Positions 36,655 through 44,765 of a stretch of DNA of 64,000 nt are shown one piece after another. The notes below the pieces were generated by a model that saw only the letters and a list, made by a program, of their open reading frames with translations, did no database searches and was not told where the DNA came from. The position numbers were made by a program, and so were the translations under genes. The DNA is taken from NCBI GenBank assembly GCA_026770705.1, contig JANJGN010000016.1:88164001-88228000 (forward strand). Direction: 5' to 3'. Position 1 is the stretch's first letter. The number at the start of each line of letters is the position of its first letter. Source of the DNA: Isurus oxyrinchus. Its lineage: Eukaryota.

Positions 36655-37660
36655 ACCTTTGAGTAAGTCACAAGCAAGGTGGATAAAGGGGAAACTGTAG
36701 ATGTGGTGTACACGGAATTTTTAAATGCATTTGATAAGGTGACACATCAAACATTGCTGCATAAGATGAGAGCTCATGGGCCAGGATTTTGCTCTCGTCG
36801 GGTGAACTCGGTGGGGGTGAGAGTGGGCGTTCAGGAAGCCGACCACTGCCTGTGATTGGAGCCTGAGCGGGATTTCACACTGGCGAGCCAATTAAAGCCC
36901 TCCCAGCGTGAACCACGTGCTCCAGCGCTCAGCGCTGCCTGTGTCGGGAGGAGGGAGGGATGGGGGTAAGCGGAGAGCTTTGTGCATGAGTGCGAGTGTG
37001 CACAGGAAAAGCTCCCTGAGGCACGGAGCGGCCTGTAAGGTAGCTCAATGTGTCGATCTCATCAAGATGGGTAGGAATGTAATTTGTTAAGAGCAGGTAG
37101 GGAGTCTGCAAAGGGATATGGACAGGTTAAGTGAGAGGACAACAATTTGTCAGATGGAGCGTAATGTGTGAAAATGTGAACTTGGCAGGAAGAATACAAA
37201 AGCAGGATATTATTTAAATGGAGAGAGATCCTGCAGAACTCTGAGATCCAGAGGGATCTGGGTGTCCTGGTGCATGAATCACAAAAAGTTGGTTTGCAGA
37301 TGCAGCAAGTGATTCGGACGGCACATGGAATGTTGGAGTTTGTTGCAAGGGGAATGGAATATAAACATAAGGAAGTTTTACTGCAGCTGTACAGGGACGT
37401 TGGTGAGACCACATCTGGAGCAGTGTGTACAGTTTTGGTCTCCTTATTTGAAAAAGGATATAATTGCGTTCGAAGCAGTTGAGAGAAGGTTCATTCGGCT
37501 CACTCCTGGGATGAGGGGTTTATTTCATGAAGGAACGTTGGACAGGTTGGGACTCCAGTCAGTGCAATGGAGAAGAATGAGAGGGGATCTTATTAAAACA
37601 TATAAAATCCTGAAGGGATATGATAGAATGGATTCCAGGAGGTTGACCCCACTTCTCAGG
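36655..37660 (+). mobile_element. CR1 RT fragment interrupted by a putative DNA-transposon end
   Basis: VDKGETVDVVY...AFDKV, then after the insertion LGVLVHESQKV and LVRPHLEQCVQFWSPYLKKDI. Confidence 0.85.
36778..37030 (+). mobile_element. Putative non-autonomous DNA transposon (Harbinger-like) terminus
   Basis: GC-rich non-CR1 insert beginning GGGCCAGGATTTT. No matching right TIR was seen. Confidence 0.4.
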
Positions 37661-37926
37661 AGAGAGAAAAATGAGTAGGTGGAGGGACAAAGAAAGAGAG
37701 ACAGAAAGTTAGGGAGAAAGAGAGAGAGGGAGGGAGAGGGAGAGAGAGGGAAAGGAAGAGAAGGGGAGGGAGAGAGAGAGCAAACAAGGAGAGTGAGACA
37801 AAAAGAACAAGACAAGGAGACAGGCAGAACGAGAGGGAGAGAGAGACAGGGAGTGACGGACAGAGAGAGGGAAAGATAGAGGGAGAGTGATGGACAGATA
37901 CTGAGAGAGGGAGGGAGAGAGTTGAA

Positions 37927-38023
37927 GAGGAAGTGAAAGGTGCTGACGTGGTTCTCTCTGGGTGATACCATTTACATACTGAGGAACAGCCAGTGAGACT
38001 CTGACAGGCTGCAGCTGTATAAA
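37927..38023 (+). promoter_or_regulatory. Ig light-chain V promoter (EICE, CRE/UPRE-like, variant octamer, E-box, TATA)
   Basis: GGAAGTGAAA 37929-37938, TGACGTGG 37944-37951, ATTTACAT 37970-37977 (7/8 match to the octamer), CAGCTG 38012-38017 and TATAAA 38018-38023. The TATA box starts 66 bp before the ATG. Confidence 0.8.
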
Positions 38024-38083
38024 GCTGAGCCCAGTGAAGGGAGAGTTTATCAGTGACCAGGCACAGGGACAGGAGCAGACACC

Positions 38084-38132
38084 ATGATTTCAGCCATCCA
38101 GCTGATCTGGCCTCTGGCATTCTGCATCGCAG
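38084..38132 (+). CDS. IGKV: Ig kappa light-chain leader exon (L-part1)
   Basis: ACCATG Kozak context; encodes MISAIQLIWPLAFCIA+G with a phase-1 donor gtacaa at 38133. The intron 38133-38318 ends in a pyrimidine tract plus cag. Confidence 0.95.
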
Positions 38133-38318
38133 GTACAAATCTCTCTCCTTCCACCGTGAATATTTTCCTGCTCTCTATTTCCAGCCAATTCGACTGACTT
38201 GTGATTGAAGGGAAAATGCTGAAAGCAGAGGAACGGTCACTGTCTCTAACAATATCTCATTTTACAGGCTCTTTGTGTGACAGTTCTTACTTCACACTGT
38301 TTCTCTATTACCCCTCAG

Positions 38319-38613
38319 GTATCAGAGGGGAAATCACCATGAAACAGCCTCCCCTGGTGTCAGTGAGCCTGGGCCAGACCGCCACCATCACCTGTACGGC
38401 CAGTCAGTCTGTTAGCAGCTATGTGAGTTGGTACCAGCAGCAAGAAGGACAGAAACCGACTCTCCTGATCTATAGGGCAACAAACCGATTCACAGGAACA
38501 TCCGAGCGATTCACCGGCAGTGGATCTGGCACTCAATTCACCCTGACAATCAGCAATGTACAGAATGAGGATGTCGCTGATTATTACTGTCAGCAAACTG
38601 ACAGCTCCCCCTA
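38319..38613 (+). CDS. IGKV: Ig kappa (shark type III/NS4-like) V exon, unrearranged, open frame
   Basis: (G)[97 protein letters not shown]. Conserved Cys, WYQQ and YYC are present. Confidence 0.97.
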
Positions 38614-38641
38614 CACAGTGATACAGAGCCTGACAAAAACC
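38614..38641 (+). other. 12-bp-spacer recombination signal sequence (V)
   Basis: CACAGTG (38614-38620) + atacagagcctg (12 bp) + ACAAAAACC (38633-38641); both elements match consensus perfectly. Confidence 0.98.
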
Positions 38642-38644
38642 TCA

Positions 38645-42751: not shown

Positions 42752-43080
42752 GCAGAGAGAAGTCACCACCCACACTGACCCTGTTGCCCCCCTCCCCAGA
42801 GGAGGTCAAGACCAAGGGCACTGCCACCCTGGTGTGCCTTGCCAATCACTTCTATCCCGATGAGGTGAAGGTGGAGTGGAAGAAGGACGGTGCAGCCATT
42901 TCGGACGGGGTTCAGACCAGCAACTACCTGCGAGCTTCAGACAGCACCTACAGCGTCAGCAGCCTGCTGACCCTCTCTGGCTCCGGCTGGGAGTCCAATG
43001 CCAGCTTCTCCTGTGTCGTCACCCACGAGAGTCTTTCCTCTCCCCTCAGCAAGAGCATCAGGAGATCAGAATGTGCGTAG
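42752..43080 (+). CDS. IGKC: Ig kappa constant exon
   Basis: Acceptor cttccttctcttccatttcag|, in phase with J. (S)REKSPPTLTLLPPSPEEVKTKGTATLVCLANHFYPDEVKVEWKKDG...YSVSSLLTL...FSCVVTHESLSSPLSKSIRRSECA*: C1-set Cys/Trp/Cys plus a penultimate Cys for heavy-chain bonding. Confidence 0.97.
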
Positions 43081-43236
43081 AGTGTTAGAGACAGTCCACA
43101 GAGGAGATACAACTTTAAATAGAACAGGGGTGAGCTGGGAGGGCAAAGGTCATTGTCAGCACCAAATTACAACTCTCTTCCTTCTCAGGACTGGCTCTGA
43201 GACACTTTTGAGGGTCAGGGGTTAACGCACGTTATT

Positions 43237-43652
43237 GGGACAGTGTACAGGGAGCTTTACTCTGTATCTAACCCCATGCTGTACCTGTCCTGGGAGTGTT
43301 TGATGGGGACAGTGTAGAGGGAGCTTTATTCTGTATCTAACCCCGTGTTGTACCTGCCCTGGGAGTGTTTGATGGGGACAGTGTAGAGGGACCTTTACTC
43401 TGTATCTAGCCCCCTGCAGCACCTGTCCTGGGAGTGTTTGATGGGGACAGTGTAGAGGGAGCTTTACTCTGTATCTAACCCCGTGTTGTACCTGCCCTGG
43501 GAGTGTTTGATGGGGACAGTGTAGAGGGACCTTTACTCTGTATCTAGCCCCCTGCAGTACCTGTCCTGGGAGTGTTTGATGGGGACAGTGTAGAGGGAGC
43601 TTTACTCTGTATCTAACCCCGTGTTGTACCTGTCCTGGGAGTGTTTGATGGG
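43237..43652. repeat. 69-bp minisatellite (6 copies) within the predicted 3' UTR
   Basis: Unit gggacagtgtagagggagctttactctgtatctaaccccgtgttgtacctgtcctgggagtgtttgatg. Copies 2/4/6 and 3/5 alternate as a 138-bp dimer. Confidence 0.95.
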
Positions 43653-43855
43653 TCAGTTTAATCTCGTGATGCTAAGTTAAACCTTTCTAAGATGCTGAAG
43701 ACTGTCAGCTGTACAAAAATAATGTGACCCTCCGAAGTGTCTGCTTCAGTAAACCAGACCCCTTCCTGCTCACCCTGCAGTTACAATTTAAGGTTTAGTC
43801 ACTGTTTAAAGGGACAGGATTCTCATGTTCTGGAGAAAATCTCCACAAGCGTTTT

Positions 43856-43956
43856 AATAAACCTCCATTCTCCCTGTGAATTTCTCCAGCTCCCTCTGGC
43901 TGGGCTGTTTATTCAAGTCTTTTTTCTGTAAATGTCAATGTGTAAAAGGTAATAAA
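43856..43956 (+). terminator. Candidate polyadenylation signals of the light-chain mRNA
   Basis: The first AATAAA after the stop is at 43856-43861. The second, at 43951-43956, is followed by GT-rich 'gtctctgtctggtgagtgcttt'. Confidence 0.65.
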
Positions 43957-44129
43957 CATTAAGAATATTCAGTCTCTGTCTGGTGAGTGCTTTGGAAATG
44001 TCCCACCTCCCCATCAGCTGATTGGCTGCCTTTCAGCAAGTGCTTGTCCTGATTGGCTGGCTGGCCTGTCAATCAATGACACTTCAACAGAAGATTTGAT
44101 TCAAAGCCAGCTATCAATCATTTTAAAAT

Positions 44130-44280
44130 AAAAATAGGATTACCTGGAAAAACTCAGTAGGTCTGGCAGCATCGGCGGAGAAGAAAAGAGTTGACGTTTC
44201 GAGTCCTCATGACCCTTCGACAGAACTTGATGAACTTTTTTGTTTTAGATTTCCAGCATCCGCAGTTTTCTTTGTTTTCA
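44130..44280. mobile_element. Short Penelope-like terminal fragment with a 14-bp target-site duplication
   Basis: 'ctggaaaaactcagtaggtctggcagcatc...gacgtttcgagtc...atttccagcatccgcagtttt', flanked by aatcattttaaaat at 44116-44129 and 44281-44294. Confidence 0.7.
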
Positions 44281-44454
44281 AATCATTTTAAAATGATCAG
44301 TTTTATCCTGAATCTCTTGAATTTACAAGATTAAAAACAGAAAAGAAACTGGAAGTTGCTGGGATTAAATCATCACAACCACAATTAAGTCAGGAGTGCA
44401 AACTGTAGCCAGTCCAGGAGATGTGCTCTCAGGCCCTGTGCTACTTTTACACTC

Positions 44455-44765
44455 GATCCTGTTGCAATAACCACCAACATTCCATCTACCTTCCGAATCA
44501 CTTGCTGCATCTGCAAACCGACTTTTTGTGATTCATGCACCAGGACACCCAGATCCCTCTGGATCGCAGAGTTCTGCAGCCTCGTTCCATTCAAATAATT
44601 TACTGCTTTTCTATTCTTCCTACCAAGCGGACAATACACATTCTCCCACATTATTCCCCACCTGCCAAATATTTCCCCACTCGCTTAACCGATCTAAATC
44701 CCTTTATTGGCCCATTCTGTCCTCTTGACAACTTACTTTCCAAGCAATATTTCTGTCATCAACAA
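44455..44765 (-). mobile_element. CR1 RT fragment
   Basis: Minus-strand GRKNRKAVNYLNG...QRDLGVLVHESQKVGLQMQQVIRK. Confidence 0.85.

What the first reader, a model, noticed from the sequence alone, without database searches (positions are those of the whole stretch)
37231..44579. Nearly identical 88-bp inverted tracts in old CR1 copies bracket the whole V-J-C unit
Seen: 37231-37318 (+) and 44492-44579 (-) match at 86 of 88 positions (both encode DLGVLVHESQKVGLQMQQVIR). The immediately flanking parts of the same two CR1 fragments are clearly more diverged (roughly 75-80% by eye). The pair encloses the promoter, L, V, J, C and polyA signals (~7.3 kb). Inference: recent gene conversion or crossover between the inverted copies. 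The light-chain cassette may be, or may have been, an invertible unit, and such flanking repeats could be the substrate by which shark Ig clusters are flipped or multiplied.
Basis: partly seen in the sequence, partly recalled or inferred. Interest (0 to 1): 0.72.

Follow-up and report, generated by a model that had tools for sequence, protein, structure and literature searches.

The report
Old gene-conversion patch between shark retrotransposons
Two decayed retrotransposon remnants on either side of a shark antibody light-chain gene share a short patch that one most likely copied from the other long ago, an ordinary repair event that gives no sign of flipping or multiplying the gene.

Summary
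The match is real: 86 of 88 bases, in a pair otherwise 73-80% alike (3 of 200,000 permutations). Motif conservation alone does not explain it. At conserved ORF2 columns the two dead copies carry 31 private departures in 88 copy-columns outside the tract and 0 in 30 inside (p = 2.5e-5). The middle 38 bases, however, are a core that family reads match anyway. Best reading: one short non-allelic gene conversion between oppositely oriented CR1 remnants 7.2 kb apart, probably left to right, beside a lamniform-shark kappa L-V-J-C cluster. It is not recent: a second organism, about 1.8% diverged, carries the half of the right tract that its listed contigs cover. The invertible or multiplying cassette is unsupported. 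On the right side, high-depth near-identical sequence runs at least 250 bases past the tract, and part of the matching 3' flanks stop before the CR1 remnant. The copies' decay levels mildly favour no crossover (likelihood ratio 7.7). CR1 remnants fill 21% of the non-satellite DNA in both orientations, so a bracket is expected. Long reads and the left boundary were not tested. Known kind of event; low interest.

The parts
36649..36780 (+). Left CR1 remnant, upstream piece of ORF2 (reverse-transcriptase region), separated from the rest by about 260 other bases
   Evidence: tblastn with CR1 ORF2 relative P0003, residues 184-227, 64%
37040..37669 (+). Left CR1 remnant, ORF2 C-terminal part; decayed (stops, frameshifts at 37230 and 37397); match ends well before the end of ORF2; probable donor
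37231..37318 (+). Homogenised tract, left copy; starts directly after a 2-base insertion private to this copy (37228-37229)
37970..38023 (+). Promoter-like motifs: octamer-like site with one mismatch (37970) and TATAAA (38018)
   Evidence: motif scan; function inferred
38084..38132 (+). Kappa leader exon
   Evidence: ATG and GT ends; its translation matches the leader of P0118-P0122
38319..38613 (+). Kappa V exon, open frame, one codon shorter in framework 1 than relatives
   Evidence: Pfam V-set 3.9e-19; 85-88% to basking-shark kappa V
38614..38641 (+). V recombination signal, 12-base spacer, no mismatch
39900..39938 (-). J recombination signal, 23-base spacer, one mismatch
39939..39973 (+). 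J segment
   Evidence: read from the sequence; ORF list shows no longer frame; matches the J motif of relatives by eye
41463..41976 (-). Third CR1 ORF2 remnant, inside the J-C intron
   Evidence: tblastn
42752..43080 (+). Kappa C exon
   Evidence: Pfam C1-set 3.3e-25; 98% to Cetorhinus maximus kappa light chain-like P0118
43856..43956 (+). Two AATAAA polyadenylation-type signals
44385..44775 (-). Right CR1 remnant; more decayed, cut short on both sides; probable acceptor
   Evidence: family read depth falls to 41 at 44660-44699 against 3,610 in the tract (X24)
44492..44579 (-). Homogenised tract, right copy; 44524-44561 is the core that family reads match
44592..44832 (.). Sequence outside the tract that is shared at high depth in organism A, so the amplified unit does not end at the tract
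   Evidence: X3 record 16 (1 other letter in 241, depth 150.5); X4 records 23 and 24 (0 in 150, 1 in 121; depth 190, 193)

Best explanation
A single, old, non-crossover gene conversion between two dead CR1 copies. Shown: both copies had decayed independently, yet about 90 bases are almost the same in both. Inferred: a break or stalled fork in the right remnant was repaired with the left remnant (7.2 kb away, or the same remnant in a paralogous kappa cluster) as template. Pairing was probably seeded in the 38-base core where family members are alike, and copying stopped at a 2-base insertion on one side and at clustered mismatches on the other. The event came before the split of organisms A and B and before the amplification of the cluster class that carries the right remnant; two changes have accumulated since. 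The L-V-J-C unit is a bystander: the patch is a neutral scar, not a cluster boundary or a switch.
For: 86 of 88 against 73-80% flanks; 3 of 200,000 permutations. Private departures at columns at least 60% conserved among 117 CR1 ORF2 relatives: 22 of 66 copy-columns upstream, 0 of 30 in the tract, 9 of 22 downstream; p = 2.5e-5. Shared rare residues in the tract: M in 5 of 112, I in 8 of 88, N in 10 of 66 aligned relatives; none of 120 relatives has more than 2 of the 5 shared rare residues. At 44495, 387 of 482 laid reads carry another letter than both copies (X24). The dominant clipped-off family consensus differs from both copies at 7 of 30 places in 44494-44523 (table 7 compared by eye with the columns). 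The right copy as donor is unlikely (p = 0.002), the left is compatible (p = 0.07); at 44520, 626 of 696 reads carry the left copy's letter. Age: B contig 44532-44773 with 3 other letters; B's four listed pieces differ from the window at 16 of 906. Size and distance fit published cases: LTR conversion tracts of 14-450 bp, mean 99 (PMC4921805, passages); Alu conversion raised within 10 kb (PMC6598467, parts 1-2 of 4).
Against: The 38-base core is matched by family reads anyway, and without it the permutation result weakens to 0.7%. Only one shared letter (44495) was shown with its share; 68 of 108 rows of that table were hidden, and the clipped-off consensus is by construction the set that does not match. 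A GL-type subfamily exists (5 of 120 relatives), so some shared letters may be inherited subfamily letters. At 44566 one clipped subfamily consensus has the right copy's letter, so that site does not prove direction. The tract is somewhat less decayed than even the left flanks (1 of 15 against 28 of 108), which could point to a third, younger donor; the relatives were found with a query holding the tract, which biases the same way. No listed B piece covers 44486-44531.
Confidence: 0.72

Rival explanations
1. The tract is the scar of a crossover between the inverted copies that once flipped the 7.2-kb L-V-J-C interval; some paralogues or haplotypes keep the other orientation.
For: Geometry allows it: opposite-orientation repeats give inversion (PMC2583991, passages). 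Conversion tracts can accompany crossovers (own knowledge). Contig depths inside (187) and outside (150) the right tract would be unchanged by an inversion, so cannot exclude it.
Against: Decay levels pair better without an exchange: left 11 of 34 outer and 17 of 74 inner, right 15 of 36 outer and 6 of 11 inner; likelihood ratio 7.7 (weak). The longest perfect run is 45 bases, below the 134-232 bp range at which mammalian intrachromosomal recombination fell 20-fold, though the same review reports events on under 50 bp between close repeats. Promoter and polyA would turn with the gene, so V-J joining would not change (inference).
Confidence: 0.1
2. Conversion, but from a third, younger CR1 copy or its cDNA, or relayed between paralogous clusters rather than within this pair.
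For: The tract departs from conserved columns at 1 of 15, fewer than either copy's flanks. The right remnant appears to be present in several near-identical copies (depth 150-193 against 5-28 for the family contigs listed beside it), which multiplies possible partners. cDNA-mediated conversion is known for yeast Ty and Tf2 (PMC6598467).
Against: Both copies must then have received the same patch with the same ends; a left-to-right transfer is still needed. No listed contig spans the tract with few differences apart from the locus's own pieces: the family pieces over it have 10-16 other letters in 89-104 (146,611 pieces not shown).
Confidence: 0.09
3. No exchange: both copies come from one subfamily, the tract is that subfamily's conserved motif, and both escaped decay there by chance.
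For: Family reads pile up on the tract (X24 depth 2,366-3,610 against 41-800 in the right flanks); the DLGVLVHES motif is conserved; a GL subfamily exists.
Against: Dead copies decay without regard to protein constraint, yet 0 of 30 against 31 of 88. Other decayed pairs in the window, some spanning equally conserved motifs, reach only 17-34 bases. Family contigs are clipped at 44524 in all three contig runs (295, 284 and 207 records), so the 3' third of the tract is not typical of the family.
Confidence: 0.07
4. The pair marks the ends of the unit by which kappa clusters were multiplied.
For: Clusters are multi-copy: 3' UTR contigs have depth 302-532 in A; about 50 NS4 genes in one nurse shark (PMC2193156, passages).
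Against: Shared sequence continues to at least 44832 at like depth. A second class of flank (depth 124 in X3, 63 in X4) differs at 44348-44355 and its alignment ends at 44386, where the remnant begins; raw-read depth in B falls from about 10 to about 2 there. Inverted repeats do not duplicate by simple crossover.
Confidence: 0.01
5. Assembly or polishing artefact: reads of one copy overwrote the other.
For: The tract is shorter than a short read; no listed contig of A covers 44519-44591.
Against: X3 record 11 joins the right copy's inner flank to 44492-44518 with 0 other letters in 208; X12 record 7, from another organism, joins 44532-44579 to the outer flank.
Confidence: 0.01

Closest known systems
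Non-allelic gene conversion between neighbouring transposable-element copies (Alu pairs, LTRs; PMC6598467, PMC4921805, PMC3670932)
   Same: Short homogenised patch between two diverged copies of one family, under 10 kb apart; length near the 99-bp mean reported for human LTRs.
   Different: A CR1 LINE in a shark; flanks only 73-80% alike, which is low for conversion partners (own knowledge); inferred from one assembly and short-read contigs, not from population polymorphism.
Inversion by non-allelic homologous recombination between inverted repeats (PMC2583991; yeast flip/flop region, PMC9731477, search listing only)
   Same: Two homologous arms in opposite orientation around a gene unit; signs of homogenisation in the arms.
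   Different: Arms of 88 bases with a 45-base perfect run; no second orientation seen; decay pattern mildly favours no exchange of flanks.
Shark kappa (NS4, type III) light-chain cluster (PMC2193156, PMC5192425)
   Same: One V, one J, one C in one orientation; split configuration with 12- and 23-spacer signals; C 98% like basking-shark kappa, 83% like nurse-shark P0126; multi-copy.
   Different: V is one codon shorter in framework 1; V-J distance about 1.3 kb because of two minisatellites, against 250-500 bp in the review's passage.
CR1 non-LTR retrotransposon remnants
   Same: ORF2 reverse-transcriptase and C-terminal region by tblastn to PF00078-bearing relatives.
   Different: Both flanking copies are internal fragments without recognisable ends; subfamily not assigned.

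Membership tests
Non-allelic gene conversion tract | Local identity between paralogues far above their flanks | tested here: met
   86 of 88 against 73% and 80%; 3 of 200,000 permutations
Non-allelic gene conversion tract | Not explained by functional conservation of the region | tested here: met
   Private departures at conserved columns 0 of 30 against 31 of 88, p = 2.5e-5
Non-allelic gene conversion tract | Shared derived letters confined to the tract, against the species' own subfamily consensus | tested here: inconclusive
   One site shown with its share (44495, 387 of 482 other), 7 of 30 against the clipped consensus, rare shared M; 68 rows hidden and no subfamily consensus available. 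One shared departure also lies upstream
Non-allelic gene conversion tract | Flanks not exchanged (non-reciprocal) | tested here: inconclusive
   Likelihood ratio 7.7 for no crossover; no outgroup locus
Non-allelic gene conversion tract | Unconverted state seen in an outgroup or in other haplotypes | not testable with these tools
   No genome held; organism B already has the covered half of the right tract
Invertible segment between inverted repeats | Homologous arms in opposite orientation | tested here: met
Invertible segment between inverted repeats | Both orientations present in haplotypes, paralogues or cells | not testable with these tools
   One laying call, right side only, contigs and 151-base reads; none of the 15 joints shown lies at the tract, 410 not shown
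Invertible segment between inverted repeats | Uninterrupted homology long enough for efficient recombination | tested here: not met
   45 bases perfect against 134-232 bp and 300-500 bp in PMC2583991; that review also notes exceptions under 50 bp
Boundary of an amplified Ig cluster unit | Paralogue homology ends at the repeat | tested here: not met
   Right side: continues to at least 44832 at depth 150-193.
Shark kappa (NS4) light-chain cluster | Single V, J and C with kappa-type C sequence | tested here: met
Shark kappa (NS4) light-chain cluster | 12-spacer signal after V, 23-spacer signal before J (kappa order, recalled) | tested here: met
CR1 LINE | ORF2 similarity to CR1-type reverse-transcriptase proteins | tested here: met
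CR1 LINE | 3' terminal repeat and target-site features | not tested
   Both ORF2 matches stop before the end of the protein; ends were not searched for

The most novel reading that the evidence does not exclude
The patch is the joint of a real germ-line inversion: two CR1 remnants only about 75% alike recombined through a 38-base conserved core and flipped a whole kappa L-V-J-C unit inside a larger amplified block, so that lamniform kappa clusters exist in both orientations and CR1 cores act as recurring recombination seeds among Ig clusters.
Probability: 0.08. Interest if true: 0.55.

Novelty: new member of a known kind. Interest (0 to 1): 0.2.

Why it matters
As it stands it is a clean small example of gene conversion between old retrotransposon copies in a slowly evolving genome. 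It also serves as a marker: the patch and the junction at 44386 separate classes of kappa clusters and could help order their duplications. It does not explain how shark Ig clusters multiply. If long reads showed both orientations, it would give a first concrete rearrangement mechanism for shark light-chain clusters. I found no paper on this in four searches (listings only), but the library lacks most subscription journals.

Tried and rejected
Own genome: none held, so no species consensus, paralogue alignment or orientation check. DNA pattern scans for related CR1 copies found 0 stretches in metagenome contigs and 0 in viral contigs. Protein-guided scans gave 0 of 32 candidates in viral contigs, 3 of 562 in metagenomes and 1 of 91 in prokaryote genomes; these four loci matched the left copy over at most 29 bases (2 of 4 loci) and were useless as an outgroup. 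Rfam: 0 matches in 18600-45300. RAG-type signals at the tract ends: none among the 4 sites listed. Earlier findings of the scan: none by place, sequence or words. Aleshin and Zhi 2010 is not held and is cited only through PMC6598467 and PMC3670932. Dating by the epaulette-shark rate of 7e-10 per generation (PMC10587355, passages) gives about 16 million generations (2-57 million); this is too wide and probably too old to use beyond 'not recent'. The strand-changing joints at 44125-44243 belong to a high-copy repeat, not to the tract. Unitig end points (44518, 44532) hint that the tract may reach 37321 in other paralogues, but graph effects could also produce them; not used as evidence. Contig depth is used only as a rough ratio; the tool states that it is no copy number.
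Full report
Observation. The two stretches match at 86 of 88 positions, with differences at 37244/44566 and 37290/44520. They lie in two oppositely oriented ORF2 remnants of a CR1-type element that align at 78.4% over 305 columns: 73% on the 5' side and 80% over the 30 columns on the 3' side. No third copy of this part of the element lies in the window. A run this long arose in 3 of 200,000 column permutations; the 7 other repeat pairs listed below 45,300 reach 17-34 bases.

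Setting. The enclosed gene is a split shark kappa (NS4-type) cluster: leader, V (Pfam V-set), 12-spacer signal at 38614, 23-spacer signal at 39938, J, C (Pfam C1-set) and two AATAAA sites. The C exon is 98% identical to a basking-shark kappa protein and at most 89% to those of the other species listed (33 hits among 430 candidates), so the window is most likely from a lamniform shark (inference). The cluster lies in about 27 kb of repeat-rich DNA between a 55-base satellite (1.6-18.6 kb) and a G-rich satellite (from 45.25 kb). CR1 ORF2 remnants cover 21% of that DNA in 9 segments on both strands, one inside the J-C intron. Being bracketed by some inverted CR1 pair is therefore expected; only the near-identity needs explaining.

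Is it just a conserved motif? In part. Reads and contigs of four public runs were laid on 43660-44859 at 85% likeness. Family reads pile up on the tract, and family contigs are clipped at 44524 on one side and at 44561 or 44578 on the other. The middle 38 bases are thus matched by many family members. Removing them weakens the permutation result to 1,464 of 200,000. But these copies are dead, and decay after insertion ignores protein constraint. At columns at least 60% conserved among 117 ORF2 relatives, the copies carry private departures at 22 of 66 copy-columns upstream, 9 of 22 downstream and 0 of 30 in the tract (p = 2.5e-5). In the tract they share rare residues: M in 5 of 112 relatives, I in 8 of 88, N in 10 of 66. 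None of 120 relatives has more than 2 of the 5 shared rare residues, although a GL-type subfamily exists (5 of 120). These relatives are sparse, unnamed and probably mostly from other species. At DNA level, 387 of 482 reads differ from both copies at 44495, and the dominant clipped consensus differs from both at 7 of 30 places in 44494-44523 (compared by eye). Against this: 68 of 108 rows were hidden, and the clipped set is selected for not matching. Homogenisation is the best reading; a species-level subfamily consensus is still missing.

Direction and age. The tract departs from conserved columns at 1 of 15. That is unlikely for native right-copy sequence (21 of 47 in its flanks, p = 0.002) and compatible with the left copy (28 of 108, p = 0.07). 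The relatives were found with a query containing the tract, which biases these shares. At 44520, 626 of 696 reads have the left letter; at 44566, 1,699 of 1,986 do, but one clipped subfamily has the right letter there. Left to right is probable, not shown. Organism A matches the window's right remnant at 0-1 letters per piece. Organism B's four listed pieces differ at 16 of 906 (1.8%), and one of them holds 44532-44773 with only 3 other letters, so B has that half of the patch too. With 2 of 88 differences (2.3%; 0.3-8.0%) in a slowly mutating lineage (PMC10587355, passages), the event is old. The same contigs tie the tract to both flanks of the right copy, which argues against an assembly artefact.

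Is the cassette invertible, or multiplied through these repeats? In organism A the pieces just inside the tract (44311-44518, 0 other letters, depth 187) and outside it (44592-44832, 0-1 other letters, depth 150-193) have like depth, far above the 5-28 of the family contigs listed beside them. Read as a rough ratio, the right remnant is present in several copies, and the shared unit runs at least 250 bases past the tract. The tract is therefore not the right-hand end of the amplified unit. A second class of flank (depth 124 in X3; with the first class 311, close to the 302 of the 3' UTR contig) stops aligning at 44386, where the remnant begins, and raw depth in B falls there from about 10 to about 2. 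This suggests that not all clusters carry the right remnant; linkage of that class to a C exon is inferred from depth only. Opposite-orientation repeats give inversion, not duplication (PMC2583991, passages). For inversion there is no positive sign. Decay levels pair better without exchange of flanks (likelihood ratio 7.7, weak), the perfect run is 45 bases, and no recombination signal lies at the tract ends. None of the 15 joints shown is at the tract, but 410 were hidden, only the right side was laid, and short contigs cannot show an inversion between these arms. Even a flip would carry promoter, signals and polyA together and leave deletional V-J joining unchanged (inference; cluster organisation from PMC5192425, passages).

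Mechanism. Shown: two independently decayed remnants; a sharply bounded, nearly identical patch; its presence in a second organism; shared sequence beyond it. Inferred: break repair or a template switch in the right remnant using the left remnant, here or in a paralogous cluster, seeded in the conserved core and ended by heterology (a 2-base insertion lies directly before 37231), without crossover; later amplification copied the scar. Confidence 0.72. Rivals: inversion scar 0.10, third donor or relay 0.09, chance in a conserved motif 0.07, amplification boundary 0.01, artefact 0.01.

Comparison and novelty. This is the known process of non-allelic gene conversion between neighbouring transposable-element copies. 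It is reported as raised within 10 kb for Alu (PMC6598467, parts 1-2 of 4; PMC3670932, passages), with tracts averaging 99 bp for human LTRs (PMC4921805, passages). Four searches on shark Ig clusters with CR1, conversion, orientation, retrotransposons or duplication listed nothing on such a case (listings only; supplements not read; subscription journals mostly absent). It is a new instance of a known kind, mildly notable for the low identity of the partners.

Verdict. Observation confirmed; conversion supported; 'recent', 'invertible' and 'substrate for multiplication' not supported. Interest 0.2. The most novel open reading, a real inversion joint with both orientations among paralogues, has probability about 0.08 and would merit about 0.55.

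Noticed in passing
window 1607-18587 and 45252-64000: The kappa cluster sits in about 27 kb between two long satellite arrays: a 55-base unit (17 kb) and a G-rich 24/48-base unit (over 18 kb, running off the window). Such arrays are better candidates than the CR1 pair for unequal exchange between clusters.
   Followed up: no
window 44300-44386: A second class of 3' flank differs at 44348, 44353 and 44355 and stops aligning at 44386, where the right CR1 remnant begins; raw depth in organism B drops about fivefold there. Possible breakpoint between kappa cluster classes.
   Followed up: partly
window 44030-44099: The listed contig of organism A differs from the window at 8 shown places here; organism B's contig shares 3 of these differences and keeps the window's letter at 4 others. 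Suggests paralogue classes older than the A/B split.
   Followed up: no
window 38319-38360: V framework 1 is one codon shorter than in nine relatives and has several changes near its start; the frame stays open.
   Followed up: partly
window 38647-39438 and 39572-39878: Two minisatellites (61-base unit x13; 45-base unit x7) stretch the V-J interval to about 1.3 kb; one unit gives a weak 23-spacer RSS-like hit at 38741 (3 mismatches).
   Followed up: no
window 44125-44290: Very high-copy repeat with internal inverted ends; thousands of reads change strand between about 44130 and 44240.
   Followed up: no
window 22775-27545: A long, broken CR1-type element of another subfamily: ORF1-like GDSL/esterase domain at 23988-24635 and RVT_1 at 26132-27046.
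   Followed up: partly
window 277-1291 (-): Fragment of an LTR-type retroelement pol with RT_RNaseH domains.
   Followed up: no
window 36781-37040: About 260 bases of other sequence interrupt the left CR1 remnant, and about 50 ORF2 codons are missing at that place.
   Followed up: no
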